DNA of 56,374 nucleotides from the NCBI GenBank assembly GCA_016185845.1, contig JACPMV010000046.1:1-56374 (forward strand), in the 5' to 3' direction. The position numbers were made by a program, and so were the translations under genes. The notes under the pieces were generated by a model. It did not search any database, had not been told where the DNA came from, and saw nothing but the letters and a program-made list of their open reading frames with translations. This document shows positions 22,568 through 36,362 of the stretch, one piece after another. The DNA is from Candidatus Woesearchaeota archaeon. Lineage in GTDB: Archaea > Nanobdellota > Nanobdellia > Woesearchaeales > GW2011-AR4. How positions within the stretch are numbered: position 1 is the stretch's first letter; each line of letters begins with the position of its first letter.

Positions 22568-24637
22568 TTAATGTTCCCTTATTGCGAATAATTGCGCATA
22601 TCCTTGCGCAGTCTTTTTTGGCTTAATAATCTCATTTATTTGAGTTAGCATGCTTTGCCACTGGAATACGCTTTCAGGCATTTTTTTGCCCCACATATCC
22701 CATGGTCTTACCCCATAGTCCAAGCCGCCTTGCTCAGCGCCAATAGTATCCAACTCTTCCATAACCTCATTCCATGGGCGGATTTCACGCATTAATTTTT
22801 CTATTATATACATAGATATTCCTCTTGAAGATATATGCGGCTCCTGATTTTGGCCGCTTATAGCAAATGAATGGTCTGGCACTTCATAATAATATCTTCT
22901 TCCAACATGTTTCCAATCTACGCTTGTTTCTTTTCTTTTAACCCACCCAAGATCAAATGCAGGATTCTTGTCAGTCGGGCCTACTTTGTAAAGATAAGGG
23001 TATGTTCCAATATCTGATTTTTTCAGCCCTGCTCCGGGAATCTCCCTTAAAAGATCTACAGGAACATATTTTTGACCTGTAACTCTTCCTGTAACTGGGT
23101 CTTTCCTGTATGCTATATCATTTTCATTTTCCATATGCCATAAGTTCCATATTGATGCATTATTTGCTTCAACATAATCCATTATAGTCGAAGTCCCAGT
23201 ATGAAACCTGCCGTCTCTTAAATCATCTCTGTAAGTGTCATGCATATTTGTTATATAATTTGCCATTTCCAGCGTATCCACCCAAACCTTAAATTGCGAC
23301 TCGGCGCCGCCAGGAAGTTGTCTCCACGTGCTGCTTTTGGTAGGATTGCCTTTCTCATCCCATTTGTCCATCATTACATAGCCATCTTCATCAACTTCCA
23401 AAGGATAGCCATATTTATCAAGCCCATGGTCTAACTCATCAGGCTTTTTGTACCATTTGCCTCCTCCGGGATTTGTGTAGCCGTCATATTTTCTTAACTC
23501 GTCTTTAATTTCAGCATTGAAGTATCGCTTGCCGTAAACAATCGGCTGTATAATTTTATAAGAATGGTAATAAACCATTTTTTCTGGAGAAAATACTTCT
23601 TGGGATTGTGTTCTACTCATATCCGCAATTTTATCAAATGCCTGAGACATAACTACGCCACGATTCCTGACAAAAGAACGGGCCCTTCCCTCATATCCTG
23701 TAGTCAGCTCATCTCCAAAATGTGAACCTTTGATTTTTTCGCCACCGCAATATTCAGATAGTATAATTCCAATGTAGCTTATGTATGCTCCTCGTATTGA
23801 TTTAACATGACCTATCATATTTTTTTTGATAGTTTCATCCGCTTCCAAATCAACTACTCTTGCTATAAAATCATCGCATATTTTATTTATTGTAGCTGTA
23901 TAACGTAGAGCATAATCAGCCTGCCGGCCATATCCAAATGGGCTGATTTCAACAATCCATTCACGGCTCATGCCAGGAATAGGATACCTCATTTTGCATT
24001 TTGCAGGCACAATATACTCATAAGCCTGACCTGCAATGTTTATTGATAACTTATCAAAAACAAATGGATCCTGCAGTCTCCTCATTCTTTCCTCTTCAGT
24101 TTCTTCTTCAATATCCTGCTCTATTTCCAAGTCTTTTTGTGTTATCCCCCTTTCATATAATGGGTACTCCCAGTTTGTTCTTGAAGGATCCAGGAATATT
24201 CCCGCTTTTGCATATATATCATTAAGCTCTTCTACATAACCTCTTTGGTCCTTATCCGGGTCCCATCTTTGAAAAACATCCCAGCTTTTCTCAATGGAAT
24301 TTACTGCTTCTACTCGCCTTTGCAATAATTTAATTAAGTTTTCAACCCTTGTGTCGTGTCTTTTTAAGGGATGCCTGAGCCTTTGCCATAAGCTTATTTC
24401 TTCTCTTGCAACTTTGCCTATGTCAAGCCTTACTGCCTGCAGTGCGCCAGCCGCTTCCCCTCTGTATTTAGTATATCTTAATGGTATTCCCGTTCCTTCT
24501 TGAATATTTATATCAATCCATCTGCCAAAACGGGACCTCTTGAATTTATGCTTTATTATGTTAGCCCATCTTTGTGGCCATTTACTTGCCTGCCTTGGTT
24601 GTGGTTGTTGCACACTAGGCTGCTCTTGGTCTGCCAT
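22568..24637 (-). CDS. 689-aa orphan protein, last gene of the five-gene operon
   Basis: Strong SD (gggaggag) 5 nt before the ATG. Overlaps the upstream gene by 23 nt. Trp/Tyr/Arg-rich with no recognised motif. Confidence 0.7.
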   Translation of the reverse strand: MADQEQPSVQQPQPRQASKWPQRWANIIKHKFKRSRFGRWIDINIQEGTGIPLRYTKYRGEAAGALQAVRLDIGKVAREEISLWQRLRHPLKRHDTRVENLIKLLQRRVEAVNSIEKSWDVFQRWDPDKDQRGYVEELNDIYAKAGIFLDPSRTNWEYPLYERGITQKDLEIEQDIEEETEEERMRRLQDPFVFDKLSINIAGQAYEYIVPAKCKMRYPIPGMSREWIVEISPFGYGRQADYALRYTATINKICDDFIARVVDLEADETIKKNMIGHVKSIRGAYISYIGIILSEYCGGEKIKGSHFGDELTTGYEGRARSFVRNRGVVMSQAFDKIADMSRTQSQEVFSPEKMVYYHSYKIIQPIVYGKRYFNAEIKDELRKYDGYTNPGGGKWYKKPDELDHGLDKYGYPLEVDEDGYVMMDKWDEKGNPTKSSTWRQLPGGAESQFKVWVDTLEMANYITNMHDTYRDDLRDGRFHTGTSTIMDYVEANNASIWNLWHMENENDIAYRKDPVTGRVTGQKYVPVDLLREIPGAGLKKSDIGTYPYLYKVGPTDKNPAFDLGWVKRKETSVDWKHVGRRYYYEVPDHSFAISGQNQEPHISSRGISMYIIEKLMREIRPWNEVMEELDTIGAEQGGLDYGVRPWDMWGKKMPESVFQWQSMLTQINEIIKPKKTAQGYAQLFAIREH

Positions 24638-26387
24638 AATTCTCCTCCCTCTTAATTTCTATTGATGTTTTTGTTTGTTGATTATCTAAAATAAGGAACC
24701 CAAAATTATTTTTCATGAACCTATCGAGCACTCGATATTCTTCTTCAACTGCGACCATATAATCCTTTAATTCTTCCAGTTTTCTTTGAATATTCTCATC
24801 TTTAAATATACTCTCCATTAAAGATAGATTATATTCGGCGCTTTTAGCGAAACCAGCTGCCTGTCCAAGGCCGTACATTATTGCTAAGAAATACTTTGGC
24901 GTTAAGGAAGTTGCTTCTAAGCTGGCGCCGCTGATTTTACGAACCCTATCTATAAGTGGAATAGCCATATTAATGCGGGCAAGTGCAATTTCTAATCTTG
25001 ACACAATCTGTTCCCTTATATCATGATCGATAACCCTTTCTTTTGCAGAGAAAAAATCAGTAGATACATCAGCGCATCTATCACTTAAATATTCGAACAT
25101 TGTCTTTAAATCTTCAATTCTTTTCCTCAATCTTTCTTTAACCCTTCTAGCTTCTTTCAGGATGGCAGCGGCAGTGTCGCGTTCACTTTTGACTATTGGC
25201 AATAAAGCATCTTTCAGCTCGCCAACCTCGGGTTTTTCCATTTTGCTTAATTCCGCAATTCTGCTCCTAAAAAGAATTTCCATCGCTGTAATGAATGGGT
25301 ATATGACTCTTGCCCTCATGTACTGGACAGAGCTGAATTCCGCCAGCTTTTGCGTCAAAAATTGAAGCATTTCTCTTGGATATTCTCTTTTTGCTTCGGC
25401 CTTGGAAAACAACCCTTTGTGGTAAGCGATTTTTTGCTCCAGCTCCTCTGCAAATTCGGCAGCTCCGAAATCATTCACCAATTTGTCCACTACTTTTTTT
25501 GGATTTGTGAACCCTTCCCAATTAAATGAATCTCTTTGGAAGGCGTCTATTTGCGCTTTTAAATACCCAAGGAAGGCATAAAAGTTTTCAAGATGCCTCT
25601 TGGCTCTATTTGTTCTTGAGAATTTTTCAACTGCCTCATCGTTAAAGTCCTTTATCAAGCCCAAATGATCTTTGCCTTCTCCATCAAAGAAAACTTTGGC
25701 TCTGGCTTCAAAGAATGGGATTCCCATTGTCATAGACTCTCTTGTTTTCCATGACTCAACTTCTCTTAAATCCCTTGCCAGCCACTCTATCTCCTGCCCT
25801 GTAAGCATTACTATTATATTCTCAATTCTTGCAGATGCTTTTTTATCTCTCATGCTGTCAAGAGAAGCTCTTATTTCTGCTCTGTGGGGCGGGGTTTTAA
25901 TATATCCCTCAACTTTCTCTTTTTCAGGATTTTCCATTACAAACCTGTAAAGATTCAGCAATACAATAAACTCATCTTGTGCCTTATCACTTGTAAACTC
26001 TTTTCCTGATTTTCCTAGTTGCTCTAGGACATATCCCATCAGCTCTCCCCGGTATCTTACAATCCATTGCCTCATTGCCCTTAACTTTCTTAAAAATTCA
26101 AATGGGTCACCATTGGATGCCCTGTAGTTATTCGATATCAAGAGTATCAACTGGAAATCAGGGTATCTTTCCAGTAATTTGCGATCGTCATTTAAGCCGT
26201 TTTTTAAATGATCTTGCACCCTTATTCTTTTAGAATCTACTTTATCTATGAATTCCAAGCTGCTGCCAAAAACTTGGGCCAGAATTGCGTCTGCGCGTTT
26301 CATAGTTTCTTCAATAAGTTTACTTTTTCCTTTTCTTCGCAAAATGCCTTTCAGTTTTTCAAACAATGCTGAATTAATTTTAATCAT
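24615..26387 (-). CDS. 590-aa predominantly helical orphan protein
   Basis: ATGA start/stop overlap with the upstream gene. Long charged helical segments. No NTPase or nuclease motif seen. Confidence 0.7.
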   Translation of the reverse strand: MIKINSALFEKLKGILRRKGKSKLIEETMKRADAILAQVFGSSLEFIDKVDSKRIRVQDHLKNGLNDDRKLLERYPDFQLILLISNNYRASNGDPFEFLRKLRAMRQWIVRYRGELMGYVLEQLGKSGKEFTSDKAQDEFIVLLNLYRFVMENPEKEKVEGYIKTPPHRAEIRASLDSMRDKKASARIENIIVMLTGQEIEWLARDLREVESWKTRESMTMGIPFFEARAKVFFDGEGKDHLGLIKDFNDEAVEKFSRTNRAKRHLENFYAFLGYLKAQIDAFQRDSFNWEGFTNPKKVVDKLVNDFGAAEFAEELEQKIAYHKGLFSKAEAKREYPREMLQFLTQKLAEFSSVQYMRARVIYPFITAMEILFRSRIAELSKMEKPEVGELKDALLPIVKSERDTAAAILKEARRVKERLRKRIEDLKTMFEYLSDRCADVSTDFFSAKERVIDHDIREQIVSRLEIALARINMAIPLIDRVRKISGASLEATSLTPKYFLAIMYGLGQAAGFAKSAEYNLSLMESIFKDENIQRKLEELKDYMVAVEEEYRVLDRFMKNNFGFLILDNQQTKTSIEIKREENYGRPRAA

Positions 26388-28618
26388 TTTGTTTTTTCTC
26401 CGCCTGTAGTAACTCCAGTTGTGAATACTTTTTCAGGAGTTTTAGATGAACTATCCCATACCCAATAAGCCAATTCCTGCCTGGTTTTGTCAGTTTTCTT
26501 TTCTGCTTTTTCAATCATCATATTCAATACCTGCGATAATCCGACTGTGGAAAGCGTTGGGTAAGGATTTCCGGTTTTTCTGTCCCTGCTCACAGATTCA
26601 TCCCAGTAATTTTTTTTGCCCCAATATTTATAGAGCCCAGAATGCCTTAATGCCTCCAAATCAAATGCCCCTCTCTCAGGGTATTGCGGAGGTGTTCTTG
26701 TCGGATATTCTCTGCCATTTTGATTCCTGCTTCTCAAGTCAAATGTATTCTTGCTTATTAGGTTTGTATAATCTACATCAGACCTGCTGTTTGGATGGTA
26801 ATGCCCAAATCTAAGGTCCTGCATAAAAGCATCCCACTCATTTAAAATCTGTTTAAAGACAAAGGCAAACGATGCTATGTTAGGATACTCATTGGTTTGC
26901 GGGTAATCTTTAATGTCTTCTATCCTTACTCGTCTTATATAGCCAAGGTTTTTGTGCTCAACTTCTATGGCATTGACATCTTCCAGAACAAAGCCTTTTA
27001 TGTCAACCTCGTGCCTCAACGGGACTGTTCCAAATTGAGTTGCAAAAGACTGGATAGCAAAACCAAGCCTGAAACTCTTGTTAATTTTAGCCAATTCATC
27101 ATTTATTTGCTTTCTTACTTTAAGGCTTTTAAGTTCAAGCTGAGCAGCATCTGTCACTTCTAATTTGTAGCGTCTTTTGAATTTCTTATCGGTCCTGTAA
27201 AGTCTGGTAAATTCAGGCTTTAACCGTCCTCTAACCTCTCCTTCAAGCCTTCTATTAACTTCTTCAGCAACCCTTTCTTCAACCCATCTTCTGGCCGGTG
27301 AACCCGCACGACCAATGCCAGTCGCATTTGGAATTCTCCGTTTTATCTCGTTAAGCGCATGTTCTGTAAATCTTCGTCTTGCATCTTCAGTTAATGCGGT
27401 TCTTAGCTCGCTTTCAATCCTTTTTCTTAAATCTTCCATAAACTCTTTTTGCTTTTTCTTCATTATTTCAATGTATTTTCTTCTGACCGCTTTGGCGTAC
27501 TCCTTATAACCCGGATAATCTTTCCAAATCTTAAGTTTTTCAAAGTCTATAGACCAAACTACAGGATCGCCTTTATCAATGGTATTTACTGGAACTTCCC
27601 ACAACTCATAAATTGCGTTTTCGTCTGCAAACCTGTAATAATGCTTATATGCGCCGTATAAGGCAACTAGGTCCAAGATATGGATTTTTAGGCTCTTTAA
27701 CCTATGGATTAGCCCGAATTTCTTTATATCATCTTCGAATTGAGAATATCCTTTACTCATAGCTGTAAAAATTCCCAAGAAACGTGATTTTATATATCCT
27801 TCATATATCTTCAAATCGTCATGCTCATTGTATTTTCCTTTGAGTTCACTGCTTTCAAGATGACTTTTGAGCAATTCAAAAAATTGGGTAATCATCTCCC
27901 TGTTTGTGTTCCAGCCTCTTTTTTTATCACCCAAGTCAAACCTGTGCGTGTCAATCACTTCACTTAGCTCGTCATAACTCATTGGAGTCTGATCAAAAAT
28001 TATCTGAAGCCCGGCAGCCTGGGCCTGGGCATCCTCAACTCCTCCCTTTTTGCCATAATAAGTGTGCAATCTCGTCATCCAGTTCATAACCATCATTAAT
28101 TCTGCCCTAATCTGGGTAAAAGTGTAGGAAAGCTCATTATTGAACTGCGGATTTTTCATTTCAAGATTCTCTATTCTATTTTTTACAATCCGCAGTCTGG
28201 ATTGCCTTAATGCGAGCAAAAACGGAGCCCAGCCCCTTTCTTTTACCCCTTTCCAGATTCTGCTGCGGCGTTTTTTGTATGGGAACCATTTGTACCATTT
28301 ATTTGAGGTTTTTCCCAACAATCCAATTCCTGTCCACCACGGCATCCATGCAAATTTTGGAGCAACTTTTCTGAAAAAGACGCGCCACATTTTCCATATT
28401 ACCCAAAACCATATAATGCCAACTAGGGTATTTGAGAAAGGACCAAGATATTCCTTTCCACCAGCCGAGGTTGAAATACTGTCAAAGATAATAGTTACAG
28501 TCGGTACCCATCCTGCAATAAATGGCGTAGCTAATATATCTAGGAGTAGGAATACCATAAGCCATCTGAAGATTTTTCTCCATTTCCAGCTATCCAAAAT
28601 ATTTGTTGTGTCCGCCAT
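26384..28618 (-). CDS. 744-aa orphan protein with N-terminal transmembrane helices
   Basis: Two to three N-terminal hydrophobic helices, then Lys/Arg-rich helical regions. The C-terminal roughly 200 aa resemble the C-terminus of the 689-aa protein. Confidence 0.7.
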   Translation of the reverse strand: MADTTNILDSWKWRKIFRWLMVFLLLDILATPFIAGWVPTVTIIFDSISTSAGGKEYLGPFSNTLVGIIWFWVIWKMWRVFFRKVAPKFAWMPWWTGIGLLGKTSNKWYKWFPYKKRRSRIWKGVKERGWAPFLLALRQSRLRIVKNRIENLEMKNPQFNNELSYTFTQIRAELMMVMNWMTRLHTYYGKKGGVEDAQAQAAGLQIIFDQTPMSYDELSEVIDTHRFDLGDKKRGWNTNREMITQFFELLKSHLESSELKGKYNEHDDLKIYEGYIKSRFLGIFTAMSKGYSQFEDDIKKFGLIHRLKSLKIHILDLVALYGAYKHYYRFADENAIYELWEVPVNTIDKGDPVVWSIDFEKLKIWKDYPGYKEYAKAVRRKYIEIMKKKQKEFMEDLRKRIESELRTALTEDARRRFTEHALNEIKRRIPNATGIGRAGSPARRWVEERVAEEVNRRLEGEVRGRLKPEFTRLYRTDKKFKRRYKLEVTDAAQLELKSLKVRKQINDELAKINKSFRLGFAIQSFATQFGTVPLRHEVDIKGFVLEDVNAIEVEHKNLGYIRRVRIEDIKDYPQTNEYPNIASFAFVFKQILNEWDAFMQDLRFGHYHPNSRSDVDYTNLISKNTFDLRSRNQNGREYPTRTPPQYPERGAFDLEALRHSGLYKYWGKKNYWDESVSRDRKTGNPYPTLSTVGLSQVLNMMIEKAEKKTDKTRQELAYWVWDSSSKTPEKVFTTGVTTGGEKTK

Positions 28619-28622
28619 TGTA

Positions 28623-29777
28623 TTATTTAGTTATGGACTCCCATAGTCCGCCGACAAGCCCAGCTACTAATCCTACTACTAATTTGCCAATAGCCACGCC
28701 TGTACTCAATGAAAAACTGCTGCCAGGAGCTGAAGGCGCGCCCAGACTTGGTGCTCCAGCTATACTGCATGCGCTTCCTAAAGCTTTGGCAGTAGCTGAA
28801 AAAAATCCACTTATGTATCCTGCTCCGATTGTATTACTAGATACTTCCGCAATTTTGCATAATCCGCTTCCAAATAATCCGACAAGCGCGCTTGCGCCGA
28901 ACATTGTCCGGAATAGATATTCAACTACTACGATAGTTATTAGCCATCCTAATACCATTCCAAGAGAGCCTTTGCCTTGAGTGAGTATGCTGGCAATTAT
29001 CACTATTAGGAATAATTGCGCCATTCCAATTACAAGAGAGTAATCAGCTCCAGTACGGGCAAGAGTTGAGCCAAGCCATGCTGCTATGAAATAAGTAAGT
29101 TTTTTGCCGCCAGCTTGATCCAACTTTAGGAATACGCTGAAGAACCAGGCAAATAGGATGGTAGACCCAAAAAACACCCACAGCCTGTATTTATTCGCTT
29201 TTTCTGGCCTTAGTATTCCTCCTAAGGTTTTTCCAGGCGTTGAAGGATCAGGCTTGTCTGGCTCAAGGAGATAATTTTTAGCTACAGTATAATTTTCAGT
29301 TCTCCATAACCAATTATCTCCTATGCTTACCGCTATCATGCCTGCTATTAATATTGACAATAAGACAAGTCCAATTTGCCCTTGTTTTTTTTGCGGGTTA
29401 ACACCAAGAAACCCTGCTCCAAACCATCCAACAGCAGCAATAATTAACGCATTCACCAGAACTTTCGGCCTTAGTATTGTTGAAAGCGGCCCAACATTCC
29501 ATATATATCCCTCGCCTTTTCCGCCAATTGTCAGGACTGTTATGACGGCCAGCGCATAGCATATGACCCATATCGCTACTTTCTCCTTGCCCTCTTTTTT
29601 CGGTATAAGGACTGACTGAAGTATGAATAGAATGAAAAACACTATCTTGACGTTTACAAAAAATATAAACCATGTATTGCTGAATATGGGAGCGTCGAAT
29701 ATGCTTTGGGCAAAAGCCAACGGCAGGCTGATTATCAAAACCAATGCGCTAATCCACATTAATTTGTTTATTTTCAT
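28623..29777 (-). CDS. 384-aa polytopic membrane protein with a Gly/Ala/Ser-rich C-terminus
   Basis: Signal-like N-terminus and eight or more hydrophobic helices. C-terminal SNTIGAGYISGF and a Pro/Ala/Ser tail. 4-nt overlap with the upstream ATPase gene. Confidence 0.7.
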   Translation of the reverse strand: MKINKLMWISALVLIISLPLAFAQSIFDAPIFSNTWFIFFVNVKIVFFILFILQSVLIPKKEGKEKVAIWVICYALAVITVLTIGGKGEGYIWNVGPLSTILRPKVLVNALIIAAVGWFGAGFLGVNPQKKQGQIGLVLLSILIAGMIAVSIGDNWLWRTENYTVAKNYLLEPDKPDPSTPGKTLGGILRPEKANKYRLWVFFGSTILFAWFFSVFLKLDQAGGKKLTYFIAAWLGSTLARTGADYSLVIGMAQLFLIVIIASILTQGKGSLGMVLGWLITIVVVEYLFRTMFGASALVGLFGSGLCKIAEVSSNTIGAGYISGFFSATAKALGSACSIAGAPSLGAPSAPGSSFSLSTGVAIGKLVVGLVAGLVGGLWESITK

Positions 29778-30925
29778 AACTCTTTCACAGCCTCATCCAA
29801 AATTTTGTCATCAGGAAGCTCATCAAACTCATAGCCCATAGAAGTTAATTTAATCCAAAGCCTAAGAACATTATCAGTAAAGTAGAATTTGTTGCCTTTC
29901 TTGTGTATCACATCGACATCCATCAGCCTTTCAATGATGCTTTTTGTGACAGGGGCGCTCCTGTAGATTTTTTTGGCAATTTCGCTCAGTCTCAATTCAT
30001 CATTTGCGACGACTTTCAGGATTATTTTGAGCAGGGTCTGCCCCCTTGCCCTGTTGTAATAGTAATTCAGGGAATCATTGCAATAATTGTAAATAGGATT
30101 GTTTTTTTGCAGAAGCTCAATCAGAAATGATTTTTTAGCATCTTTTATCTCATTGTATCTTTTGGAAATAAGGATGGTTATCAAGGGATGGCCCTGGCCC
30201 AACGCCCAGATTTCTTCGCTTGCGTTATCTTTTCCTATAATGCTTTCCGCAAGCTCAATAGCCTCTTTTTTCTCAAGATTTTTTATCTCGTAGCACTCAA
30301 AATTTTTCAGCGAAGCAAGGCTTTCCCTTATGGCAGAGCTTGCCGCAATATACCTTGCATTTTCAGCCTCAAAATTTATCACTGATAAAATATCCCTAAT
30401 CTGCGAGAAATTGTTCAGGTCAAGAAGGTTCTCGAAATTGTCAAGGGCAATGATGAATTTCCTGCCGCTGTCTTTCCCAAGCCTTTCTGCAAAATCAAAC
30501 GCGCTTTCAACAAGCAGCTTCTGGTCGGGCTTTATCTTTAATAATTCATTCTCAACAGCCTTTATCAGAGAAAATGCATTTTTGCTTTTCAGCTCGTTTT
30601 CAGCCTTAAGAAGGTTTTCCAGCAGAAGAAATTTTTTGTACTCTTTTAAGGGCTTTTTTAAAAAATTATAGGCAACATTACCTATAAGCTCAACAGAAAA
30701 ATTCTCAGGATTGAGGCTTATTTTTTCCAAGTCAATATAGACAGGAACAACGTCTTTGGCATTTTTAAGATGCTCTTTGATTATTGCTGTTTTTCCTGAT
30801 TTTCTGGACCCAAGCAGTGCAATGTTCTTGCCCGCTCCTGCCTTGAAAGAGTTTGTATTTTTATCTAGCAAATCCAGGTAATACTCTCTCTTAAAAACTA
30901 CCTCTTTCTTTGCCAAATATTTCAC
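29774..30925 (-). CDS. Archaeal ATPase (Arch_ATPase-type AAA+) with a DUF234-like C-terminal winged helix
   Basis: Walker A LLGSRKSGKT. Walker B-like FIIALDNFENL. C-terminal wHTH SEIAKKIYRSAPVTKSIIERLMDVDVIHKKGNKFYF. GTG start at 30925. Confidence 0.75.
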   Translation of the reverse strand: MKYLAKKEVVFKREYYLDLLDKNTNSFKAGAGKNIALLGSRKSGKTAIIKEHLKNAKDVVPVYIDLEKISLNPENFSVELIGNVAYNFLKKPLKEYKKFLLLENLLKAENELKSKNAFSLIKAVENELLKIKPDQKLLVESAFDFAERLGKDSGRKFIIALDNFENLLDLNNFSQIRDILSVINFEAENARYIAASSAIRESLASLKNFECYEIKNLEKKEAIELAESIIGKDNASEEIWALGQGHPLITILISKRYNEIKDAKKSFLIELLQKNNPIYNYCNDSLNYYYNRARGQTLLKIILKVVANDELRLSEIAKKIYRSAPVTKSIIERLMDVDVIHKKGNKFYFTDNVLRLWIKLTSMGYEFDELPDDKILDEAVKEL

Positions 30926-30930
30926 TCGTA

Positions 30931-31180
30931 AATTATACCAATTGGAATATATACTTATAATATAAAAATGTTTTGTTTCTTTTAATTATACCAATAGGTA
31001 TATATTTTTAAAATTAATATTCCATTTTGTATAGAACTAGTATTTAAGACTTTTGTTTCTTATAATTATACCATTTAGTATATAAACTTTTTGGTATAAA
31101 TTTGGATATCAGCTCTATTCAGGAATAATGTAACCATTTTCTAGTAATAAAAATAAAAACCTTTATATATTGGTAGTATA
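30931..31180. promoter_or_regulatory. Divergent control region with repeated TATACCA-N-GGTATA palindromes
   Basis: aattataccaattggaatatata (30931-30953), aattataccaataggtatata (30984-31004) and aattataccatttagtatata (31064-31084). Copies 2 and 3 share the flank ttttgtttct. A degenerate copy tatattggtagtata (31165-31179) overlaps the TATA of the RHH operon. Confidence 0.65.
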
Positions 31181-31226
31181 AAACACTACTGAGTAGTACT
31201 CATATAACGTTGGGGTAATTTGTTTC

Positions 31227-31421
31227 ATGAAACACAAGCTAAGTGTAAGTTTAGATGAAAGGCTCGTGCAGGAGCTAGACAGGATTCTTTCTACGGGCAA
31301 GTACAGAAACAAGAGCCATGCAATAGACTTTGCAGTGAGAAAATTGCTGGATAGCTCATCTTTGACGAACAAAATCTCCACGCCTGCCCCACAAACTAGC
31401 CCGGAGGCAAAAAATGGCTGA
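31227..31421 (+). CDS. Ribbon-helix-helix (CopG-like) protein, module 1
   Basis: KLSVSLDERLVQELDRILSTGKYRNKSHAIDFAVRKLL has a beta-strand plus two-helix RHH pattern. Its stop overlaps the next start (ATGGCTGA). Confidence 0.75.
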   Translation: MKHKLSVSLDERLVQELDRILSTGKYRNKSHAIDFAVRKLLDSSSLTNKISTPAPQTSPEAKNG

Positions 31422-32289
31422 GCCTTCAGAGCTTGAAAATATGGCGCAGGCTGCTCCGCAAACTGCTTCTCAACCAGCACAACAGCAGCCTGAGAAAAAG
31501 AAAGAAGAAACTCCGCTAGAGGAAATTGCAAACGGAGCAAAAAATGTTGCTGCATTTGGTGTCGGTACTGCATTGCCCTTTGTCTGGCCATTTGGAACTG
31601 GCATTAACAACGCAGTAACCGCCCTGCCGTTGGCCATGGGCTCTGCAATAGAAGACAAGATGCAGGGCAAGCCGATAAACTGGGTTAAAGGCGCAAAAGA
31701 ATCTCTTGTTGGAACTATAATCAACCGGCCGTTGGAGCGGATGTTCGGATACATAAACATTTCTCGTGATTATGTGACTGCAAATTACGGAATGATTCCT
31801 GGCTTTGCGGCAGCTACTGCGGCATTGGGAGCTGCGCAGGCTGTTTTCGTTGGAGCTTACATGGGCCTTAACCATGTCATACAAAATCACACATTCAAAG
31901 GCTTGTATGAAAAATTAAAGAAAGACTACTTGCCGACAATCAAAAGAACCTGGAAATATGTACTGCCATTTAGCGCTTTGAATGTTACCCTTCTACCACT
32001 AACCGGCCTTTACCAAACTCTTGGGGTTACAGCACAGCTTGCATACGGCTCATTGATGTCTTTATTGTTCAGGCTGGTTGGTCCAAAAGCAGAAGGCACC
32101 AGTCTGAAGAATCTAGTCAAGGAATTGAATCCTTTTGCGTACATAGGTGGGACTATAAGTGTCACAGCCAAAGCTGCCAAAAATACAATCGGGGGATTAT
32201 ACACTGGACTTTATGATTTAGGCAGAGCCATTGGCGGATATTCTGCAAAAGCGGCACCAGCAACAGCACCAGCACTGCAACCGGCATAA
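31414..32289 (+). CDS. Paralogous membrane protein P1 (291 aa)
   Basis: Small-residue-rich hydrophobic helices. Motifs LNPFAYIGG and AKNTIGGLYTGL. Pro/Ala-rich tail. Confidence 0.7.
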   Translation: MAEPSELENMAQAAPQTASQPAQQQPEKKKEETPLEEIANGAKNVAAFGVGTALPFVWPFGTGINNAVTALPLAMGSAIEDKMQGKPINWVKGAKESLVGTIINRPLERMFGYINISRDYVTANYGMIPGFAAATAALGAAQAVFVGAYMGLNHVIQNHTFKGLYEKLKKDYLPTIKRTWKYVLPFSALNVTLLPLTGLYQTLGVTAQLAYGSLMSLLFRLVGPKAEGTSLKNLVKELNPFAYIGGTISVTAKAAKNTIGGLYTGLYDLGRAIGGYSAKAAPATAPALQPA

Positions 32290-32291
32290 AA

Positions 32292-32438
32292 ATGAAACAA
32301 AAAATATCCATCACAATAGATGAAAAAACAGTTCACGATATTTTGAAGACTATTTCTACAGGAAAATTCAGGAATAAAAGCCACGTTGTAGAGTACGCTG
32401 TAAGGAAACTGCTTGAGGTGGAAAATGGCAGAGACTAA
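32292..32438 (+). CDS. Ribbon-helix-helix protein, module 2 (48 aa, not in the ORF track)
   Basis: My own translation is MKQKISITIDEKTVHDILKTISTGKFRNKSHVVEYAVRKLLEVENGRD. It is paralogous to modules 1 and 3 and overlaps the P2 start by 14 nt. Confidence 0.7.
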   Translation: MKQKISITIDEKTVHDILKTISTGKFRNKSHVVEYAVRKLLEVENGRD

Positions 32439-33285
32439 TCCTCTGGCAGTTCCTGGAGAACAGAAAAAGGAAAAAGGAACATTGGAGAGTGTAGTTGACG
32501 AAATATGGGATTTTGGAAAAAAGACAATTGCCATAGGCGCAGTTGCTGCTATGCCTTTCCTTTACAATTTCTATGATCCAAGCCATGTGGCAAGAGCTGC
32601 CGTTACAACTTACGGATTTGCCGCTGCCAAATCAACAGCGAATGTAATACAAAACAAAAAGCCTTTGGAAGGAATAGTATGGCAAGGCGCAACTGGAAAT
32701 ATGCTTTCCTATCCTTTAGCGCGGGGATTCACAGGATTAAACAATCTGGAAACAGCACTTGCTCCGGACTATGGCGCTACAACTGCCAGAGTGGCAAAAG
32801 CCGGCGGAATGGTTTTTGGATTGCAGCCCGCATTCACGACTATCAGGACTGCGCTTAATTATGGAGTCGGAAAAAAATTCAGGGAAAATTTGTGGCCGGG
32901 CATTAATAATACTTTAAAGTATATATCATTAATAGGCGCAGCCAATGTTTTGTGGATATACCAATATGGATTATTGGCGCAAATGGCTACGTCCATGCTT
33001 GGCAGCTATGTTATCAACCTAGTGGAATCTCTAAGAGGCGGAAAAGGCCACATAAACAATCTCTTCAGTGCTTTAAATCCGTTTTCTTACATCGGCGCAG
33101 CCGCAGGCGTTTCCTACAAGCTCGCCAAAAACACAATCGGCGGAATTTATACAGGACTTCATGATGTTGGAAAATCCATTGGCGATGCTTTTGGAGGCTC
33201 ATATCAGCCTTCTGCTCCATCTCAACCATCACCGGCAAGGCCAGCACCATCACCAGCAGCAGCGCATCCAGCCCCAGCACACTAA
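32425..33285 (+). CDS. Paralogous membrane protein P2
   Basis: I chose the start at MAETNPL by analogy with P1 (MAEPSE) and P4 (MAENLE). Motifs LNPFSYIGA and AKNTIGGIYTGL. Pro/Ala/Ser tail. Confidence 0.7.
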   Translation: MAETNPLAVPGEQKKEKGTLESVVDEIWDFGKKTIAIGAVAAMPFLYNFYDPSHVARAAVTTYGFAAAKSTANVIQNKKPLEGIVWQGATGNMLSYPLARGFTGLNNLETALAPDYGATTARVAKAGGMVFGLQPAFTTIRTALNYGVGKKFRENLWPGINNTLKYISLIGAANVLWIYQYGLLAQMATSMLGSYVINLVESLRGGKGHINNLFSALNPFSYIGAAAGVSYKLAKNTIGGIYTGLHDVGKSIGDAFGGSYQPSAPSQPSPARPAPSPAAAHPAPAH

Positions 33286-33287
33286 AA

Positions 33288-33461
33288 ATGAAGCAAAAAA
33301 TAAGCATAACTTTGGACGAAGAAACAGTTTTCAAAATTCAAAATAATCTGCGCACTGGAAAGTTCAGGAACAAAAGCCATGTTGTGGAGTTTGCAGTGAA
33401 GAAACTGCTTGAAGCGGAAAATTCTGAAGACAAAATTCTTTTGAGGGGTGATATGGAATGA
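33288..33461 (+). CDS. Ribbon-helix-helix protein, module 3 (57 aa, not in the ORF track)
   Basis: My own translation is MKQKISITLDEETVFKIQNNLRTGKFRNKSHVVEFAVKKLLEAENSEDKILLRGDME. ATGA overlap with P3. Confidence 0.7.
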   Translation: MKQKISITLDEETVFKIQNNLRTGKFRNKSHVVEFAVKKLLEAENSEDKILLRGDME

Positions 33462-34129
33462 GCCTCGAAGAAAAAGTTGCAGACCATAAGAACAGGGGAT
33501 TCCTGAGAAAAGCGCTGAAAATTGGGCTGTATGCCGGAATTGGCGCGGCAGCAGGCGCATTAAGCTACGGGCTTGTAGGAATTTCAGGCCCATTAACTGG
33601 TATTGCGTTCAGCGCAGGCTCTGCAGTTTTGAATGCCCTTGGAAAAAACCCTGACAAGAAATCAAGGGGCCTTGAAGGGATAGTCAAGGATTTTACGGTA
33701 GGTTCTTTGACTGGAATAGCAGGAGTGTGGGGCTACGATTTGGCCGCATCTTTGTTTCCTGTGCCTGGGATAGGGAGGGCATTATTTGGGCTTGCAGTTG
33801 CAAATTCCGTATTTGACGCTGCATATCTTGTTAGTGATTATATCATCAAGAACGATTTTAACCCAAGAGGAATTGGCAGACATGTTAAGGATAATTTTTG
33901 GCCGTTATTTAGGGATTCCACGATATGGCTTGGTTTGCCTGTTGCATTGACAATAAACGGCTATGGAATTCCTGCAACAATCGGAGGACTTGACTTAAGA
34001 GGATATCCAACAATTCTTGCAGCCGATGCAGCTTTTAGGGTAGTTGCAGGACTGGCTGAATCAAAAGCTTCCGGCAAGAGCCATTACGGGTATTCCGTTC
34101 CAAACATACAATATGCAGGAGCGCACTAA
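33458..34129 (+). CDS. Paralogous membrane protein P3 (223 aa, shorter)
   Basis: Gly/Ala-rich helices. VKDNFWPLFRDSTIWLGLP matches FRENLWPGINNTLKYISL (P2) and FSENYWKSTKKTMLYLGLP (P4). Confidence 0.65.
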   Translation: MSLEEKVADHKNRGFLRKALKIGLYAGIGAAAGALSYGLVGISGPLTGIAFSAGSAVLNALGKNPDKKSRGLEGIVKDFTVGSLTGIAGVWGYDLAASLFPVPGIGRALFGLAVANSVFDAAYLVSDYIIKNDFNPRGIGRHVKDNFWPLFRDSTIWLGLPVALTINGYGIPATIGGLDLRGYPTILAADAAFRVVAGLAESKASGKSHYGYSVPNIQYAGAH

Positions 34130-34130
34130 G

Positions 34131-34901
34131 ATGGCAGAAAACCTTGAGCAAAAAACTGAATCAGAATTCGGGCAATTATTCAAAGGAATAGCCAATACTT
34201 TTATAGGGGCCGGAGCAATAGGCGCTTCTTATGCCTTATTGGGCACTACTGGACTGGCAATTGCCTCTGCTGCTCCGTTAAGCGGAAGGATTGTGACCAA
34301 GCTTGCAGGCAATGATTATACGGGCAGAAATTTCAGGAATGATACACTTGCAGGAGCCGTTACAGCGCCATTATTTGTAGGAATACTTAATGCTGTGACA
34401 AGGCTTCCAAGATATTACGGAATAGACGGCTTGGTTAATATTTTAGGGGCATCCATACCTGCCTATTCGCTTGGAGTTGCAGGATTTACATTAGCAGCAA
34501 TACCTTTTTTCACAGCTTTGACATATCCTATAGGATACATGGTGAGAAATAAAACATTAAAAGGAATTGGCAAGGATTTCAGCGAAAATTACTGGAAGAG
34601 TACAAAAAAGACTATGCTGTACCTAGGCTTGCCCGGAGCAGCTCTGGTATCATTAGGGGCTACTTTGCCTTATTTAGCGCCTTACCTGGCTCCGATATAC
34701 TTCGGATTAGGAATAGTCTCCAGGGCTATGAACTCAAAAGAAAAACTGGACTATAAAAAATTGTTCAATCCATCAACATATTTGCCAAACTTTTTGAATC
34801 CGTTTTATATAGTAGAAGGACTGGCAAGCTTAATCTCCAGGGCAGTAAGATCAAGCCCTAAGCCAGCTGCTCCTGAGTTATCACCGCAGCCCGCTCACTA
34901 A
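34131..34901 (+). CDS. Paralogous membrane protein P4 (no RHH partner)
   Basis: The start at MAENLEQ is 2 nt after the P3 stop. FLNPFYIVEG and a Pro/Ala tail ending PQPAH, like P2 (APAH). Confidence 0.65.
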   Translation: MAENLEQKTESEFGQLFKGIANTFIGAGAIGASYALLGTTGLAIASAAPLSGRIVTKLAGNDYTGRNFRNDTLAGAVTAPLFVGILNAVTRLPRYYGIDGLVNILGASIPAYSLGVAGFTLAAIPFFTALTYPIGYMVRNKTLKGIGKDFSENYWKSTKKTMLYLGLPGAALVSLGATLPYLAPYLAPIYFGLGIVSRAMNSKEKLDYKKLFNPSTYLPNFLNPFYIVEGLASLISRAVRSSPKPAAPELSPQPAH

Positions 34902-35682
34902 AGCACTCAGGATGAATAGCTTCAGCCAATTTTTCAGCTCCGATTGCCAGTCTTGGCCCCGGCCTGTTTAATAAAGAATCATCAAAAACAAAGACTTTGT
35001 CATTTTGAACCGCGCTTAAATTCTGCCAGCCCTCTCTTTTTGTTATCCATTCTTTTGGGGCTTTGTCGGCCATGCCGCATATCGAGATTATTATTATTTC
35101 GGGGTCATATTTTTGTATTTGCTCTGTTGAAACTTCTTTGCTATGCACGCCTGCATTTATCAAGCTGTAATCTCCTCCGGCAATCTTCACTAAATTCGGA
35201 ACCCAGTTTCCCGAAACAGTAGGCGGCTTGTGCCATTCCTCAATGTAGGCTCTGGGCTTGTTTTTTATTTTTTTATTTTTAATATGATTTTGTATTTTGT
35301 TTTCAATTTCACTGAATCTACTTTTCATTGAATTAACTAATCTGCCTGCTTCTTTATCTTTATTAACCAATCTCCCTATTTCGGCTATTGAATCAAAAAC
35401 CCCTTTTAACGTTGTGGGCATCAAGGCAACAATATTCATCTTTGATTTTTTATATCTTGAAGTTATTTTATTCTGCACAAATGTAGAAGTCAAAATCAAG
35501 TCAGGATTGTAGCTTTTGACCAGCTCGTCATTTATGTCAAGCCAGCCCCCTATCCTTGGCTTTTTATTTGCATCTTCCGGAAAATCACAGTATCTTGTGG
35601 CAGCGGCTAATCTGTCCTGAGCGCCTAAAGCATAAAGAATTTCAGTGTTGCTCGGTGCCAGGGAAATAATTCTTCGGTACAT
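34858..35682 (-). CDS. BtuF/FhuD-type (class III) substrate-binding protein, cobalamin/iron-chelate family, with no signal peptide
   Basis: IISLAPSNTEILYALGAQDRL, YNPDLILT and DSLLNRPGPRL are typical of the Peripla_BP_2 family. The protein starts MYRRIISL with no hydrophobic leader. Confidence 0.7.
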   Translation of the reverse strand: MYRRIISLAPSNTEILYALGAQDRLAAATRYCDFPEDANKKPRIGGWLDINDELVKSYNPDLILTSTFVQNKITSRYKKSKMNIVALMPTTLKGVFDSIAEIGRLVNKDKEAGRLVNSMKSRFSEIENKIQNHIKNKKIKNKPRAYIEEWHKPPTVSGNWVPNLVKIAGGDYSLINAGVHSKEVSTEQIQKYDPEIIIISICGMADKAPKEWITKREGWQNLSAVQNDKVFVFDDSLLNRPGPRLAIGAEKLAEAIHPECFSERAAVITQEQLA

Positions 35683-35691
35683 AAGATTATG

Positions 35692-36108
35692 TCACTCTAT
35701 TCTTTCTATGTAGGGAAATTTATCAAAATCCGAGTCAAAGCTGGCTACATTTTTAACTCCGAATTTTTTGGCTAATGCAATAATGGTGCAGTCAGTAAAG
35801 CTTAATCTGCTTGTTTTTTTAAAATTTTCCCATGACTGCAAAAATATTTCCTCATCAATATTAAACCTTTCTATAGTTGGATCGCTTAAAAGAGCATCAC
35901 CAATTTCATTTATCTTATCATCAGGGATGGATTTAGCTCTGAGAAATGTTACTAGTTCATCAAATATATAATCAGAAATAAAGCACTGGCCAAATTCCTT
36001 ATTTTTAATTTTGGATTTCAACGCTAATGCGTTCTCATGCTTATGGTCTCCTGAATCATTTAGAGCGATTAGAAAAGAAGTATTCAAAATTAAACTCAAG
36101 TTTTCCAC
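35692..36108 (-). CDS. vapC: PIN-domain toxin (VapC-like)
   Basis: Acidic PIN residues are in context (LNTSFLIALND, DYIFDELV, FTDCTIIA, SFDSDF). Confidence 0.75.
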   Translation of the reverse strand: MENLSLILNTSFLIALNDSGDHKHENALALKSKIKNKEFGQCFISDYIFDELVTFLRAKSIPDDKINEIGDALLSDPTIERFNIDEEIFLQSWENFKKTSRLSFTDCTIIALAKKFGVKNVASFDSDFDKFPYIERIE

Positions 36109-36362
36109 CCATACAGCACTTCATCCACTTTTGTGCTTAAAATTCCAGCGTCCTTTCCTTCAAATTTAAATGGCTTCAAATCCCAAAAGCTCCTGCCTTT
36201 TTTTGTTTTTTTAGTTTCTTTATCATGCAGCCATCTCTCTAAAGCAAGGTTCATAGCTTCACCCATAGTCAGGCCTTCCTTGACGGCTTCCACCTTCAGC
36301 TCTCTCCACAAACTTTGGTTTACATCTCTTACTGTTATCAGTTTTGTCATATATGTAAACAT
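36096..36362 (-). CDS. vapB: RHH-type antitoxin (VapB-like)
   Basis: ITVRDVNQSLWRELKVEAVKEGLTMGEAMNLALERWL. Overlaps the PIN gene by 13 nt. Confidence 0.65.
   Translation of the reverse strand: MFTYMTKLITVRDVNQSLWRELKVEAVKEGLTMGEAMNLALERWLHDKETKKTKKGRSFWDLKPFKFEGKDAGILSTKVDEVLYGWKT

What the first reader, a model, noticed from the sequence alone, without database searches (positions are those of the whole stretch)
31227..34901. Tandem array of ribbon-helix-helix + paralogous membrane protein modules (RHH-P1, RHH-P2, RHH-P3, P4)
Four paralogous membrane proteins rich in small residues follow each other.
- They share motifs: F.EN.WP....T..Y..L; LNPF.YIG; AKNTIGG.YTGL in P1 and P2; and Pro/Ala/Ser tails ending in AH.
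- Three are preceded by a paralogous 48-64 aa RHH gene whose stop overlaps the membrane gene start (ATGGCTGA, a 14-nt overlap, and ATGA).
- Two of the RHH genes are below the ORF-track cutoff and would be missed by default annotation.
- The NTIG..Y..G motif and the Pro/Ala/Ser tail recur at the C-terminus of the 384-aa membrane protein of the opposite operon. This motif is short, so it is weak evidence.

Repeated regulator-plus-membrane-protein couples resemble toxin/antitoxin or immunity-type modules, or diversified subunits of one membrane assembly. I know of no described family with this layout.
Basis: partly seen in the sequence, partly recalled or inferred. Interest (0 to 1): 0.8.

Follow-up and report, generated by a model that had tools for sequence, protein, structure and literature searches.

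The report
Interleaved RHH and Mpv17-like membrane genes
A seven-gene operon conserved in a group of tiny symbiotic (DPANN) archaea alternates very small DNA-binding genes with four related membrane proteins that appear to be distant relatives of the eukaryotic Mpv17/PMP22 channel proteins. It looks like a regulated membrane-protein operon, not a toxin-antitoxin array.

Summary
RHH1-P1-RHH2-P2-RHH3-P3-P4 lie on the + strand at 31227-34901, with the stated 8-, 14- and 4-nt overlaps. P1-P4 are true paralogues. The three RHH genes are real, conserved and under purifying selection.

- **Known family.** P1 passes Pfam's Mpv17_PMP22 threshold. PF04117 is the only Pfam family that recurs across the P family. 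The P1 model and a real MPV17 model both match the same viral Mpv17-fold protein.
- **Distribution.** The P family is small (141 clusters at 50% identity). Every named member is Woese-/Pace-/Nanoarchaeota.
- **Conserved position.** The array sits at one chromosomal position in about 12 independent loci. In 11 it is divergent from a five-gene ATPase operon of unknown function.
- **Regulation.** A TATA box followed by an inverted repeat at the predicted transcription start is conserved in the RHH-led loci.
- **Against toxin-antitoxin.** Most RHHs are bare 46-48-aa domains, some P genes have no RHH, and nothing indicates mobility.

Best reading: an autoregulated, translationally coupled operon for paralogous Mpv17-like membrane (probably channel) subunits. 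Channel activity and DNA binding are inferred, not shown. It is a new variant of known kinds, of moderate interest.

The parts
30934..31099 (.). Type-A palindromic boxes TATACC-N4-GGTATA. Full 16-nt sites lie at 30934-30949, 30987-31002 and 31067-31082, with a half-site at 31093-31098. They lie on the ATPase-operon side of the 301-bp divergent intergenic region. Box 1 lies between the inferred ATPase TATA element (about 30955-30969, minus strand) and the GTG start at 30925.
   Evidence: There are 3 sites against 0.02 expected in the window, although the pattern was derived from these sites. The boxes are conserved in all 11 ATPase-adjacent loci and absent from L006, which lacks the ATPase operon. 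Which protein binds them is unknown.
31130..31169 (+). Promoter of the RHH-P operon. It comprises a conserved upstream element (GTAACCATTTTCTAGTAATAAAAATAAAAACC) and the TATA box TTTATATA (31162-31169).
   Evidence: The element is conserved in 12 loci. It is partly shared with the promoters of the Zn-ribbon-P3 loci. Promoter function is inferred from archaeal TATA consensus and position.
31172..31200 (.). Type-B inverted repeat GGTAGTAT-AAAAC-ACTACT-G-AGTAGTACT, spanning the predicted transcription start about 25 nt downstream of the TATA box. It is the candidate RHH operator.
   Evidence: It is conserved upstream of the array in all 12 array loci examined (11 RHH-led plus L002/L028, which start with P1), though weakened in L023 and L025. 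This includes L006, which has no ATPase operon. It is absent from the Zn-ribbon-led loci. Binding is inferred.
31227..31421 (+). RHH1, a 64-aa ribbon-helix-helix protein of the RHH1 clade, which always precedes P1-type genes. Its stop overlaps the P1 start by 8 nt.
31414..32289 (+). P1, 291 aa, an Mpv17/PMP22-like helical membrane protein (orthogroup A).
   Evidence: Pfam PF04117 scores 31 bits against a cut-off of 27. The AF2 model is all-helical. Its single outstanding BFVD match, M1I2L4, is also the #2 match of a genuine MPV17 model.
32292..32438 (+). RHH2, 48 aa, of the RHH2 clade. It starts 2 nt after the P1 stop and overlaps the P2 start by 14 nt.
   Evidence: It is 78-96% identical across loci in which P1 is only 42-53% identical.
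32425..33285 (+). P2, 286 aa from the ATG, the closest paralogue of P1 (orthogroup B).
   Evidence: The start is chosen from the conserved MAE N-terminus and the GAGGTGG Shine-Dalgarno-like motif.
33288..33461 (+). RHH3, 57 aa, 71% identical to RHH2. It overlaps the P3 start by 4 nt (ATGA).
   Evidence: In other genomes this slot is held by a 58-62-aa Zn-ribbon gene.
33458..34129 (+). P3, 223 aa (orthogroup D, the most conserved P type).
34131..34901 (+). P4, 256 aa from the ATG (orthogroup F), with no RHH of its own. It starts 1 nt after the P3 stop. Its 3' end overlaps the convergent periplasmic-binding-protein gene by 44 nt.
22568..30925 (-). Associated divergent five-gene operon. It encodes an archaeal-type AAA ATPase with a C-terminal winged helix (383 aa), a polytopic membrane protein (384 aa) and three large proteins (744, 590 and 689 aa) with no family match.
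   Evidence: It lies next to the RHH-P array in 11 distinct loci, including ones with different outer flanks or with TA genes inserted between the two operons. There are no Pfam, PDB, PHROG or PADLOC identifications.

Best explanation
This is a conserved chromosomal operon of Woese-/Pacearchaeota-type DPANN archaea.

**Shown:**
- There are seven cistrons, and every junction is an overlap or a 1-2-nt gap.
- The P proteins fall into old paralogue groups.
- The RHHs are conserved and selected.
- A promoter and an inverted repeat are conserved upstream.
- P1 links to the Mpv17/PMP22 family.

**Inferred:**
- The seven genes form one transcript from the TATA box at 31162-31169 and are translated by termination-reinitiation coupling.
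- P1-P4 are divergent Mpv17/PMP22-fold helical membrane proteins. They act as differentiated, probably hetero-oligomeric, subunits of a solute channel or pore, by analogy with PXMP2 and MPV17.
- The RHH proteins are DNA-binding repressors that sit on the inverted repeat over the transcription start.
- Each RHH is made in fixed proportion to a P protein, so repression would track how much P has been produced and cap the dose of potentially leaky membrane proteins.
- All RHH paralogues keep the same beta-strand residues (K2, K4, S6), so they would read the same operator and could form mixed dimers.
For: **Operon anatomy.** The overlaps and junctions are verified, and SD-like GGAGG / GAGGTGG / GAGGGGTGAT motifs lie before P1, P2 and P3.

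**Paralogy.** Profiles built without the window's own sequences recover all four P genes and nothing else.

**Orthogroups.** P proteins fall into six groups that are conserved between genomes. The RHH1 clade is always paired with P1-type genes and the RHH2 clade with the second P gene.

**Selection on the RHH genes.** RHH2 is 78-96% identical where P1 is 42-53% and the housekeeping P5CR is 70-75%. Synonymous codon differences roughly equal or exceed non-synonymous ones.

**RHH identity.**
- The pattern is a beta-strand, a helix, a G-K-F-R-N-K-S turn and a second helix.
- Sub-threshold hits cover the RHH N-terminal domains of NikR, CdrS and ParD.
- ParD and CopG are the nearest solved structures.
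- K2, K4 and S6 are invariant.

**Regulatory DNA.** The TATA box and type-B inverted repeat are conserved in 12 loci, including L006 without the ATPase operon.

**Mpv17 link.**
- PF04117 is above its gathering score for P1.
- It matches 16 of 30 and 13 of 103 family members, with a best E of 2.2e-9. It is the only Pfam family that recurs.
- A second subfamily hits it in the same register.
- hhalign against real MPV17 gives the same register three times, weakly.
- The P1 model's only standout BFVD hit is M1I2L4 (TM 0.72, probability 1.0). That protein is hit #2 of a pLDDT-91 MPV17 model (TM 0.83), next to an annotated viral Mpv17/PMP22 protein.

**Channel precedent.** PXMP2 has four TM segments, forms a homotrimer and forms a channel with a limit of about 0.6 kDa (PMC2662417).
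Against: - Sequence support for Mpv17 membership is thin. P2, P3 and P4 do not hit PF04117.
- Profile-profile probabilities are only 3-16%.
- The P1 model is of moderate quality (pLDDT 65) and has nine helices, not four.
- No solved structure matches.
- Hydrophobicity is low for integral membrane helices.
- One repressor gene would be enough for autoregulation. Keeping two or three RHH genes interleaved with the P genes is not explained by repression alone.
- A non-selective channel in the only membrane of a cell would need tight gating.
- No expression, binding or transport data exist.
- RHH Pfam hits are below threshold.
Confidence: 0.5

Rival explanations
1. Toxin-antitoxin or immunity-like modules. 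Each P is a membrane-damaging toxin or effector, neutralised by the RHH encoded just upstream. The array would be a set of diversified addiction or defence cassettes.
For: - The gene order is small RHH first, then a larger partner, with overlapping stop and start.
- The nearest solved and named RHH relatives are ParD-type antitoxins. NCBI names one homologue a ParD antitoxin.
- Genuine TA pairs (AbiE, VapBC, HEPN-MNT, UPF0175-DUF3368) cluster around and even inside the locus in several genomes.
Against: - The typical RHH is 46-48 aa, with no C-terminal toxin-binding extension. The longer tails of RHH1 and RHH3 are not conserved.
- P4, the first P gene of L002/L028 and several P3 genes have no RHH. 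In other genomes P3 follows a Zn-ribbon gene instead.
- The orthogroups are old, and the position is syntenic in about 12 loci.
- There are no PADLOC, PHROG, plasmid, phage or viral-contig hits.
- No RHH-P fusions or solo mobile copies were seen.
Confidence: 0.07
2. The RHH proteins are cognate partners of the P proteins and not only repressors. Each P holds or releases 'its' RHH at the membrane, as PtsG sequesters Mlc. The state of the channel or membrane would then be relayed to transcription.
For: - Distinct RHH clades stay paired with particular P positions across genomes.
- Two or three RHH genes are always kept where one would do for simple autoregulation.
- The overlapping junction GAAAATGGC(T/A)GA, which encodes ...ENG* of the RHH and MAE... 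of the P, is strictly conserved.
- Each P has a conserved acidic N-terminal cytoplasmic-looking segment.
- A different small nucleic-acid-binding-type protein (Zn ribbon) occupies the same slot before P3 in other genomes.
Against: - No fusion proteins were found among the best 120 RHH-family hits listed, of 719 found.
- The RHHs have almost no surface beyond the DNA-binding fold.
- Some P genes lack a partner.
- No interaction could be modelled with the tools at hand.
Confidence: 0.15
3. The array and the divergent five-gene ATPase operon together encode one lineage-specific membrane apparatus, for example for cell-surface or host-contact functions. The P proteins would be its small membrane subunits, not free-standing channels.
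For: - The two operons are adjacent and divergent in 11 distinct loci. These include L025, which has different outer flanks, and L023 and L027, where TA genes have been inserted between them.
- The ATPase is as conserved as housekeeping genes (68-77%). Its large partners evolve fast (22-40%), as surface or interaction proteins often do.
- The operon encodes a polytopic membrane protein and a TM-anchored 744-aa protein.
Against: - All loci come from related genomes with wider synteny, so adjacency may be inherited and not functional.
- L006 has the full array without the ATPase operon in the 2.6 kb upstream.
- The P3/P5 pairs sit elsewhere, next to ribosomal genes.
- The two operons carry different operator-like repeats.
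- The shared NTIG motif is not significant.
Confidence: 0.2

Closest known systems
Mpv17/PMP22 family (Pfam PF04117: MPV17, PXMP2, yeast Sym1, Wsc/Pex37)
   Same: - P1 and many relatives match the Pfam model in the loop-plus-last-helix signature (K-L-K-K-D-Y-x-P-x6-W-K-Y-x-L-P-x4-N against K-L-x-R-D-Y-x7-Y-L-W-P-x4-N).
- They are helical proteins rich in small residues and weakly hydrophobic.
- The P1 model and an MPV17 model share the same best viral structural neighbour.
- Family members are known to form oligomeric channels (PMC2662417).
   Different: - The known family is eukaryotic and organellar (peroxisome and mitochondrial inner membrane), about 170-200 aa with four TM helices, and its genes stand alone.
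- Here the proteins are archaeal (DPANN) and 220-300 aa. They carry an acidic N-terminal extension and a Pro/Ala/Ser tail ending in PA(H).
- They occur as 2-4 tandem paralogues interleaved with RHH genes.
- P2, P3 and P4 do not reach the Pfam model.
cdrS-ftsZ2 operon of Euryarchaeota (small RHH gene co-transcribed with the structural gene downstream)
   Same: A roughly 50-60-aa archaeal RHH gene sits directly upstream of, and is co-transcribed with, a non-regulatory gene. The best NCBIfam hit of RHH1 is the CdrS model (PMC7439475).
   Different: - The score is 25.6 bits against a cut-off of 100.
- The partner is a membrane protein, not FtsZ2.
- CdrS is reported absent from DPANN.
- Here the RHH gene is repeated two or three times within one operon.
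Type II toxin-antitoxin operons with RHH antitoxins (ParD-ParE, CopG-family antitoxins)
   Same: - The small RHH gene comes first, with overlapping reading frames.
- Autoregulation through an operator at the promoter is the expected logic.
- ParD is the nearest solved relative of the RHH.
   Different: - The RHH has no toxin-binding tail.
- The partner is not a known toxin.
- The pairing is not one-to-one.
- The locus is not mobile.
- The orthogroups are old and syntenic.
NikR / CopG / Arc-MetJ ribbon-helix-helix repressors
   Same: The domain pattern is the same, and so is the expected mode of binding to repeated half-sites as dimers of dimers.
   Different: There is no sensor domain (NikR has a C-terminal Ni-binding domain). 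All hits are below the family thresholds.

Membership tests
Mpv17/PMP22 (PF04117) | Match to the Pfam family model at or above its gathering score | tested here: met
   P1 scores 31.0 bits against a cut-off of 27, E 2.6e-7. Close P1 homologues carry precomputed PF04117. The model matches 16 of 30 and 13 of 103 family members at E <= 0.01, best 2.2e-9. This is NOT met by P2, P3 or P4 themselves.
Mpv17/PMP22 (PF04117) | Full-length collinear homology to bona fide members (profile-profile) | tested here: inconclusive
   hhalign of P profiles against vertebrate MPV17 alignments gives the same register each time (P1 ~74-178 to MPV17 ~28-133). However, the probability is only 3-16% and E is 0.0015-0.016. 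The P3 subfamily gives no signal. The MPV17 profile was vertebrate-only (Neff ~2).
Mpv17/PMP22 (PF04117) | Mpv17-type helical fold | tested here: met
   The test is indirect. The P1 model (pLDDT 65) has one standout BFVD hit, M1I2L4 (TM 0.72 over 147 aa, rmsd 3.8, probability 1.0); the next hit scores TM 0.42. A pLDDT-91.5 MPV17 model hits an annotated Tetraselmis-virus Mpv17/PMP22 protein (TM 0.79) and the same M1I2L4 (TM 0.83) as its only two strong matches. No direct P1-MPV17 superposition was possible.
Mpv17/PMP22 (PF04117) | About 170-200 aa with four transmembrane helices | tested here: not met
   P1-P4 are 223-291 aa. The P1 model has nine helices, hydropathy peaks are weak, and there are extra N- and C-terminal segments. 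The core could still be a four-helix unit.
Mpv17/PMP22 (PF04117) | Forms an oligomeric solute channel in a membrane | not testable with these tools
   The precedent comes only from PXMP2 (PMC2662417).
Type II toxin-antitoxin module with RHH antitoxin | Antitoxin gene upstream, overlapping the toxin gene | tested here: met
   There are 8-, 14- and 4-nt overlaps.
Type II toxin-antitoxin module with RHH antitoxin | Antitoxin has a toxin-neutralising extension beyond the DNA-binding domain | tested here: not met
   Typical family members are 46-48 aa, ending right after helix 2 (...KKLLEVENG). The longer tails are not conserved.
Type II toxin-antitoxin module with RHH antitoxin | Every toxin gene has a cognate antitoxin | tested here: not met
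   P4, the first P gene of L002/L028 and P3 of L016-L018 have none. Other P3 genes follow a Zn-ribbon gene.
Type II toxin-antitoxin module with RHH antitoxin | Partner belongs to a known toxin or defence family; patchy, mobile distribution | tested here: not met
   There are no PADLOC, PHROG, plasmid, phage or viral-contig hits. The position is syntenic in about 12 loci.
Ribbon-helix-helix (CopG/Arc/MetJ) DNA-binding proteins | Beta-alpha-alpha pattern with a G-x-S/T/N turn before helix 2; match to RHH models | tested here: inconclusive
   The pattern is clear in the sequence (K-x-S-x-x-x-D ... G-K-F-R-N-K-S-H-V-V-E-F-A-V-K-K-L-L). Pfam RHH_1 and ParD hits have E 0.035-0.12, below threshold. 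NCBIfam NikR, CdrS and ParD N-terminal domains give E 9e-6 to 4e-3, below their full-length cut-offs. PDB ParD gives E 0.11 over the full length. JGI names several homologues as Arc/MetJ-type RHH regulators. No structure was predicted.
CdrS (NF058555) | Score at or above the equivalog cut-off and synteny with ftsZ2 | tested here: not met
   The score is 25.6 bits against 100. The downstream gene is P1, not ftsZ2.

The most novel reading that the evidence does not exclude
The RHH-P array and the divergent ATPase operon are two halves of a DPANN-specific membrane system. Four Mpv17-like paralogues would build a gated hetero-oligomeric pore for bulk metabolite exchange, which genome-reduced symbionts need. 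The tiny RHH and Zn-ribbon partners would be held at, or released from, their cognate subunits to couple pore state to transcription. This would also make these proteins the first studied prokaryotic relatives of the eukaryotic Mpv17/PXMP2 channels.
Probability: 0.12. Interest if true: 0.8.

Novelty: new variant of a known kind. Interest (0 to 1): 0.5.

Why it matters
- **Origin of the Mpv17/PMP22 family.** Mpv17/PMP22 proteins (MPV17 in mitochondrial DNA depletion disease, the PXMP2 peroxisomal channel) have no solved structure among PDB sequences. No prokaryotic counterpart is discussed in the literature I searched. A compact archaeal branch with four differentiated paralogues would give a simpler system for studying what the fold does and where it came from.
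- **DPANN biology.** How cells lacking most biosynthesis move metabolites across their single membrane is an open question. A conserved, lineage-specific set of putative channel subunits next to a conserved unknown ATPase operon is a concrete candidate.
- **Genome annotation.** Gene callers often miss the 46-48-aa RHH cistrons.
- **Operon design.** Regulator genes interleaved with, and translationally coupled to, each structural gene are an unusual arrangement. The conserved operator-like repeats make this directly testable.

Tried and rejected
- **Toxin-antitoxin, immunity or defence island.** Rejected for the reasons given in the membership test. PADLOC, PHROGs, plasmid, phage and IMG/VR searches were all empty.
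- **Link between P1/P2 and the 384-aa protein through the NTIG motif.** The match is 12 residues with E = 2.2, so it was rejected as evidence.
- **Solved-structure relatives.** The P profile found nothing by sequence in the PDB. Foldseek of the P1 model against the PDB gave no hit better than E ~1 and TM 0.2.
- **Identity of the five-gene operon.** Pfam, NCBIfam, PADLOC, PHROGs and PDB sequence searches gave only a sub-threshold archaeal ATPase_2 plus winged-helix match for the first gene. It is left as unknown.
- **CdrS identity of the RHHs.** Rejected.
- **Structured RNA.** Rfam finds none in the window. The inverted repeat straddles the predicted start site, so an RNA hairpin reading was set aside in favour of a DNA operator (inference).
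- **Wider locus sampling.**
  - The P3 alignment gave only 5 genome and 9 metagenome loci.
  - The locus sample therefore comes from one related clade.
- **Rosetta-stone RHH-P fusions.** None occur among the best 120 RHH-family hits listed; all are <= 91 aa.

Full report
**1. What is in the sequence**

- RHH1 31227-31421
- P1 31414-32289
- RHH2 32292-32438
- P2 32425-33285 (an upstream TTG at 32413 is less likely)
- RHH3 33288-33461
- P3 33458-34129
- P4 34131-34901

The junctions are as claimed. RHH1/P1 share ATGGCTGA, RHH2/P2 share 14 nt, and RHH3/P3 share ATGA. Both P-to-RHH junctions read TAAAAATG, so a stop is followed 2 nt later by a start, and P4 starts 1 nt after the P3 stop. SD-like motifs (GGAGG, GAGGTGG, GAGGGGTGAT) precede P1, P2 and P3. 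The whole 3.7 kb therefore has no room for internal promoters and looks like one translationally coupled operon (inference).

**2. More than chance**

- An HMM built from P1-like homologues, with the window's sequence left out, recovers exactly P1, P2 (7e-85), P4 (4e-11) and P3 (3e-5) among 486 window ORFs. A P3-like HMM recovers P3, P1 and P4.
- The three RHHs are 50-71% identical.
- Their orthologues elsewhere are 46-96% identical. RHH2 is 78-96% identical in loci where P1 is only 42-53% and the housekeeping P5CR is 70-75%.
- Synonymous codon differences roughly equal or exceed non-synonymous ones.
- Public gene calls missed the second RHH in four loci (searches compared).
- The one part of the observation that fails is the motif shared with the 384-aa protein (12 residues, E = 2.2).
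- P1-P4 are only weakly hydrophobic.

**3. Where else it occurs**

- An exhaustive profile search of 1.84 billion representatives finds only 141 clusters.
- Every named homologue is Woesearchaeota, Pacearchaeota or Nanoarchaeia.
- The RHH subfamily has 719 clusters. The best 120 listed are all 46-91 aa, with no fusions.

I examined about 20 distinct loci. In 11 of them, an RHH-P1-type pair followed by an RHH-second-P pair lies divergent from the same five-gene operon. These are the window, L001, L002, L019, L021, L022, L023, L025, L027, L028 and L029.
- L006 carries the identical seven-gene array without that operon in the 2.6 kb of contig upstream of it.
- P3-type genes usually sit elsewhere, followed by a fifth P type. 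They are preceded not by an RHH but by a 58-62-aa CxxC...CxxC Zn-ribbon gene, again with an ATGA overlap.
- L009 and L022 show both loci in one genome (GCA_023266475.1).

Clustering gives six P orthogroups, an RHH1 clade tied to P1, and an RHH2 clade tied to the second P gene. The paralogues are therefore old and individually conserved, typically four per genome. That pattern fits differentiated subunits better than fast-diversifying cassettes.

**4. What the P proteins are**

- P1 passes Pfam's Mpv17_PMP22 gathering score (31 against 27 bits).
- The same model matches 16 of 30 and 13 of 103 diverse family members. It is the only Pfam family that recurs.
- An independent subfamily hits it in the same register.
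- NCBI already labels some homologues 'Mpv17/PMP22 family protein'.
- hhalign against real vertebrate MPV17 (retrieved) finds the same register three times, but weakly.

No solved structure is related, so I used an indirect structural test:
- The AF2 model of P1 (pLDDT 65, all-helical) has a single outstanding match in BFVD. This is M1I2L4, with TM 0.72 over the 147-aa target; the next hit scores 0.42.
- A pLDDT-91.5 model of MPV17 has just two strong BFVD matches. One is an annotated Tetraselmis-virus Mpv17/PMP22 protein. The other is the same M1I2L4, with TM 0.83.

I conclude, at roughly 65% confidence, that the P family is a very divergent archaeal branch of the Mpv17/PMP22 fold. It carries an acidic N-terminal extension and a Pro/Ala/Ser tail. 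The tail ends in PA or AH in 69 of 164 members. PXMP2, the best-studied relative, is a four-TM, trimeric, size-limited channel (PMC2662417). Channel function here is inferred by analogy only.

**5. What the RHH proteins are**

The sequence has the canonical strand-helix-turn-helix pattern. Hits to the RHH domains of NikR, CdrS, ParD and CopG are sub-threshold but consistent. The putative DNA-reading residues K2, K4 and S6 are invariant in all paralogues, so they should recognise one operator.

A conserved candidate operator exists:
- Downstream of a conserved upstream element and the TATA box (31162-31169) lies the inverted repeat GGTAGTAT-N5-ACTACT-G-AGTAGTACT (31172-31200).
- It spans the predicted transcription start and is followed by a leader of about 30 nt with GGGGT.
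- This block is conserved upstream of the array in all 12 array loci examined (11 RHH-led plus L002/L028), including L006, though it is weakened in L023 and L025. It is absent from the Zn-ribbon-led loci.

A second repeat type, TATACC-N4-GGTATA, occurs three times only here in the window. It stays with the ATPase operon in every locus, even where TA genes have been inserted between the operons. It probably serves that operon.

**6. Mechanism proposed**

One promoter drives seven coupled cistrons. RHH dimers repress at the start site. Each RHH is made in step with a P protein, so repression would scale with P output and limit the dose of potentially leaky membrane proteins. P1-P4 would assemble as differentiated Mpv17-like subunits.

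- Shown: the anatomy, conservation, selection, family link and conserved repeats.
- Inferred: single transcript, DNA binding, membrane insertion, channel activity and hetero-oligomery.
- Not explained: why two or three RHH genes are kept. This leaves room for the rival in which each RHH also interacts with its P.

**7. Rivals**

- Toxin-antitoxin fails four of five defining features (see the membership test). Real TA pairs nevertheless crowd the neighbourhood, and ParD is the nearest RHH relative.
- A single apparatus with the ATPase operon is plausible but cannot be separated from inherited synteny with the present sample.

**8. Comparison and novelty**

The closest known items are the Mpv17/PMP22 family (for P), RHH repressors and antitoxins, and the cdrS-ftsZ2 arrangement (for the small RHH co-transcribed with a structural gene; PMC7439475). 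None has interleaved, repeated RHH cistrons. I found no paper linking Mpv17 to DPANN or to archaea generally. I rate it a new variant of known kinds, interest 0.5. It is well-defined, conserved and testable, but without functional data.

Noticed in passing
window 22568-30925 (- strand): A five-gene 'dark matter' operon encodes an archaeal-type AAA ATPase with winged helix, a roughly 10-TM protein, and proteins of 744, 590 and 689 aa with no family or PDB match. The ATPase is 68-77% identical across loci, while its partners are only 22-40% identical. In several genomes the membrane protein and the first large protein appear to be fused or resized (791-912 aa).
   Followed up: partly
window 30934-31099: The palindrome TATACC-N4-GGTATA occurs three times, plus a half-site, found only here in 56 kb. 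It is conserved next to the ATPase operon in 11 loci. The first copy lies between the inferred ATPase TATA element and its GTG start. The binding protein is unknown; the ATPase's own winged helix is a candidate.
   Followed up: partly
L007 8839-9015, L009 9829-10017, L005 844-1020, L008 5486-5662, L025 9554-9727 (-): A conserved 58-62-aa Zn-ribbon protein (CEFCTYRWISRV.NPKSCPRCKRRFDY) takes the place of the RHH in front of P3-type genes, with an ATGA overlap. Its leaderless-looking promoter shares the upstream element of the RHH-P promoter but not the inverted repeat. No copy is present in this window.
   Followed up: partly
C-termini of P1-P4 (e.g. window 33244-33285, 34121-34129, 34860-34901) and of the family: The Pro/Ala/Ser-rich tails end in PA or AH far more often than composition predicts. 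A His lies in the last two residues in 55 of 164 members, against 1.1% His overall. This may be a sorting, processing or metal-binding signal.
   Followed up: partly
window 21009-22287 (-), 35692-36362 (-); L022, L023, L027, L002: Genuine toxin-antitoxin pairs flank this locus in different genomes, and in L023 and L027 they sit between the two operons. They include AbiEii plus a 200-aa partner, PIN plus an 88-aa RHH-like VapB, HEPN-MNT, UPF0175-DUF3368 and MazE-PIN. The region seems to be an insertion hot spot.
   Followed up: no
L006 (CAZLGX010000016.1): This contig is labelled 'uncultured Methanosarcinales archaeon' but carries the same seven-gene array at 73-96% protein identity to the window, plus the same binding-protein neighbour. 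It is probably a mis-binned DPANN contig.
   Followed up: no
window 34858-34901: The 3' end of P4 overlaps the 3' end of the convergent periplasmic-binding-protein gene (34858-35682, - strand) by 44 nt.
   Followed up: no
L001 9284-9811; L023 8353-9072: Extra small-residue-rich ORFs (175 and 239 aa) lie between the ATPase operon and the first RHH in two genomes. The P-family HMM did not recognise them. They may be further, more divergent relatives.
   Followed up: no
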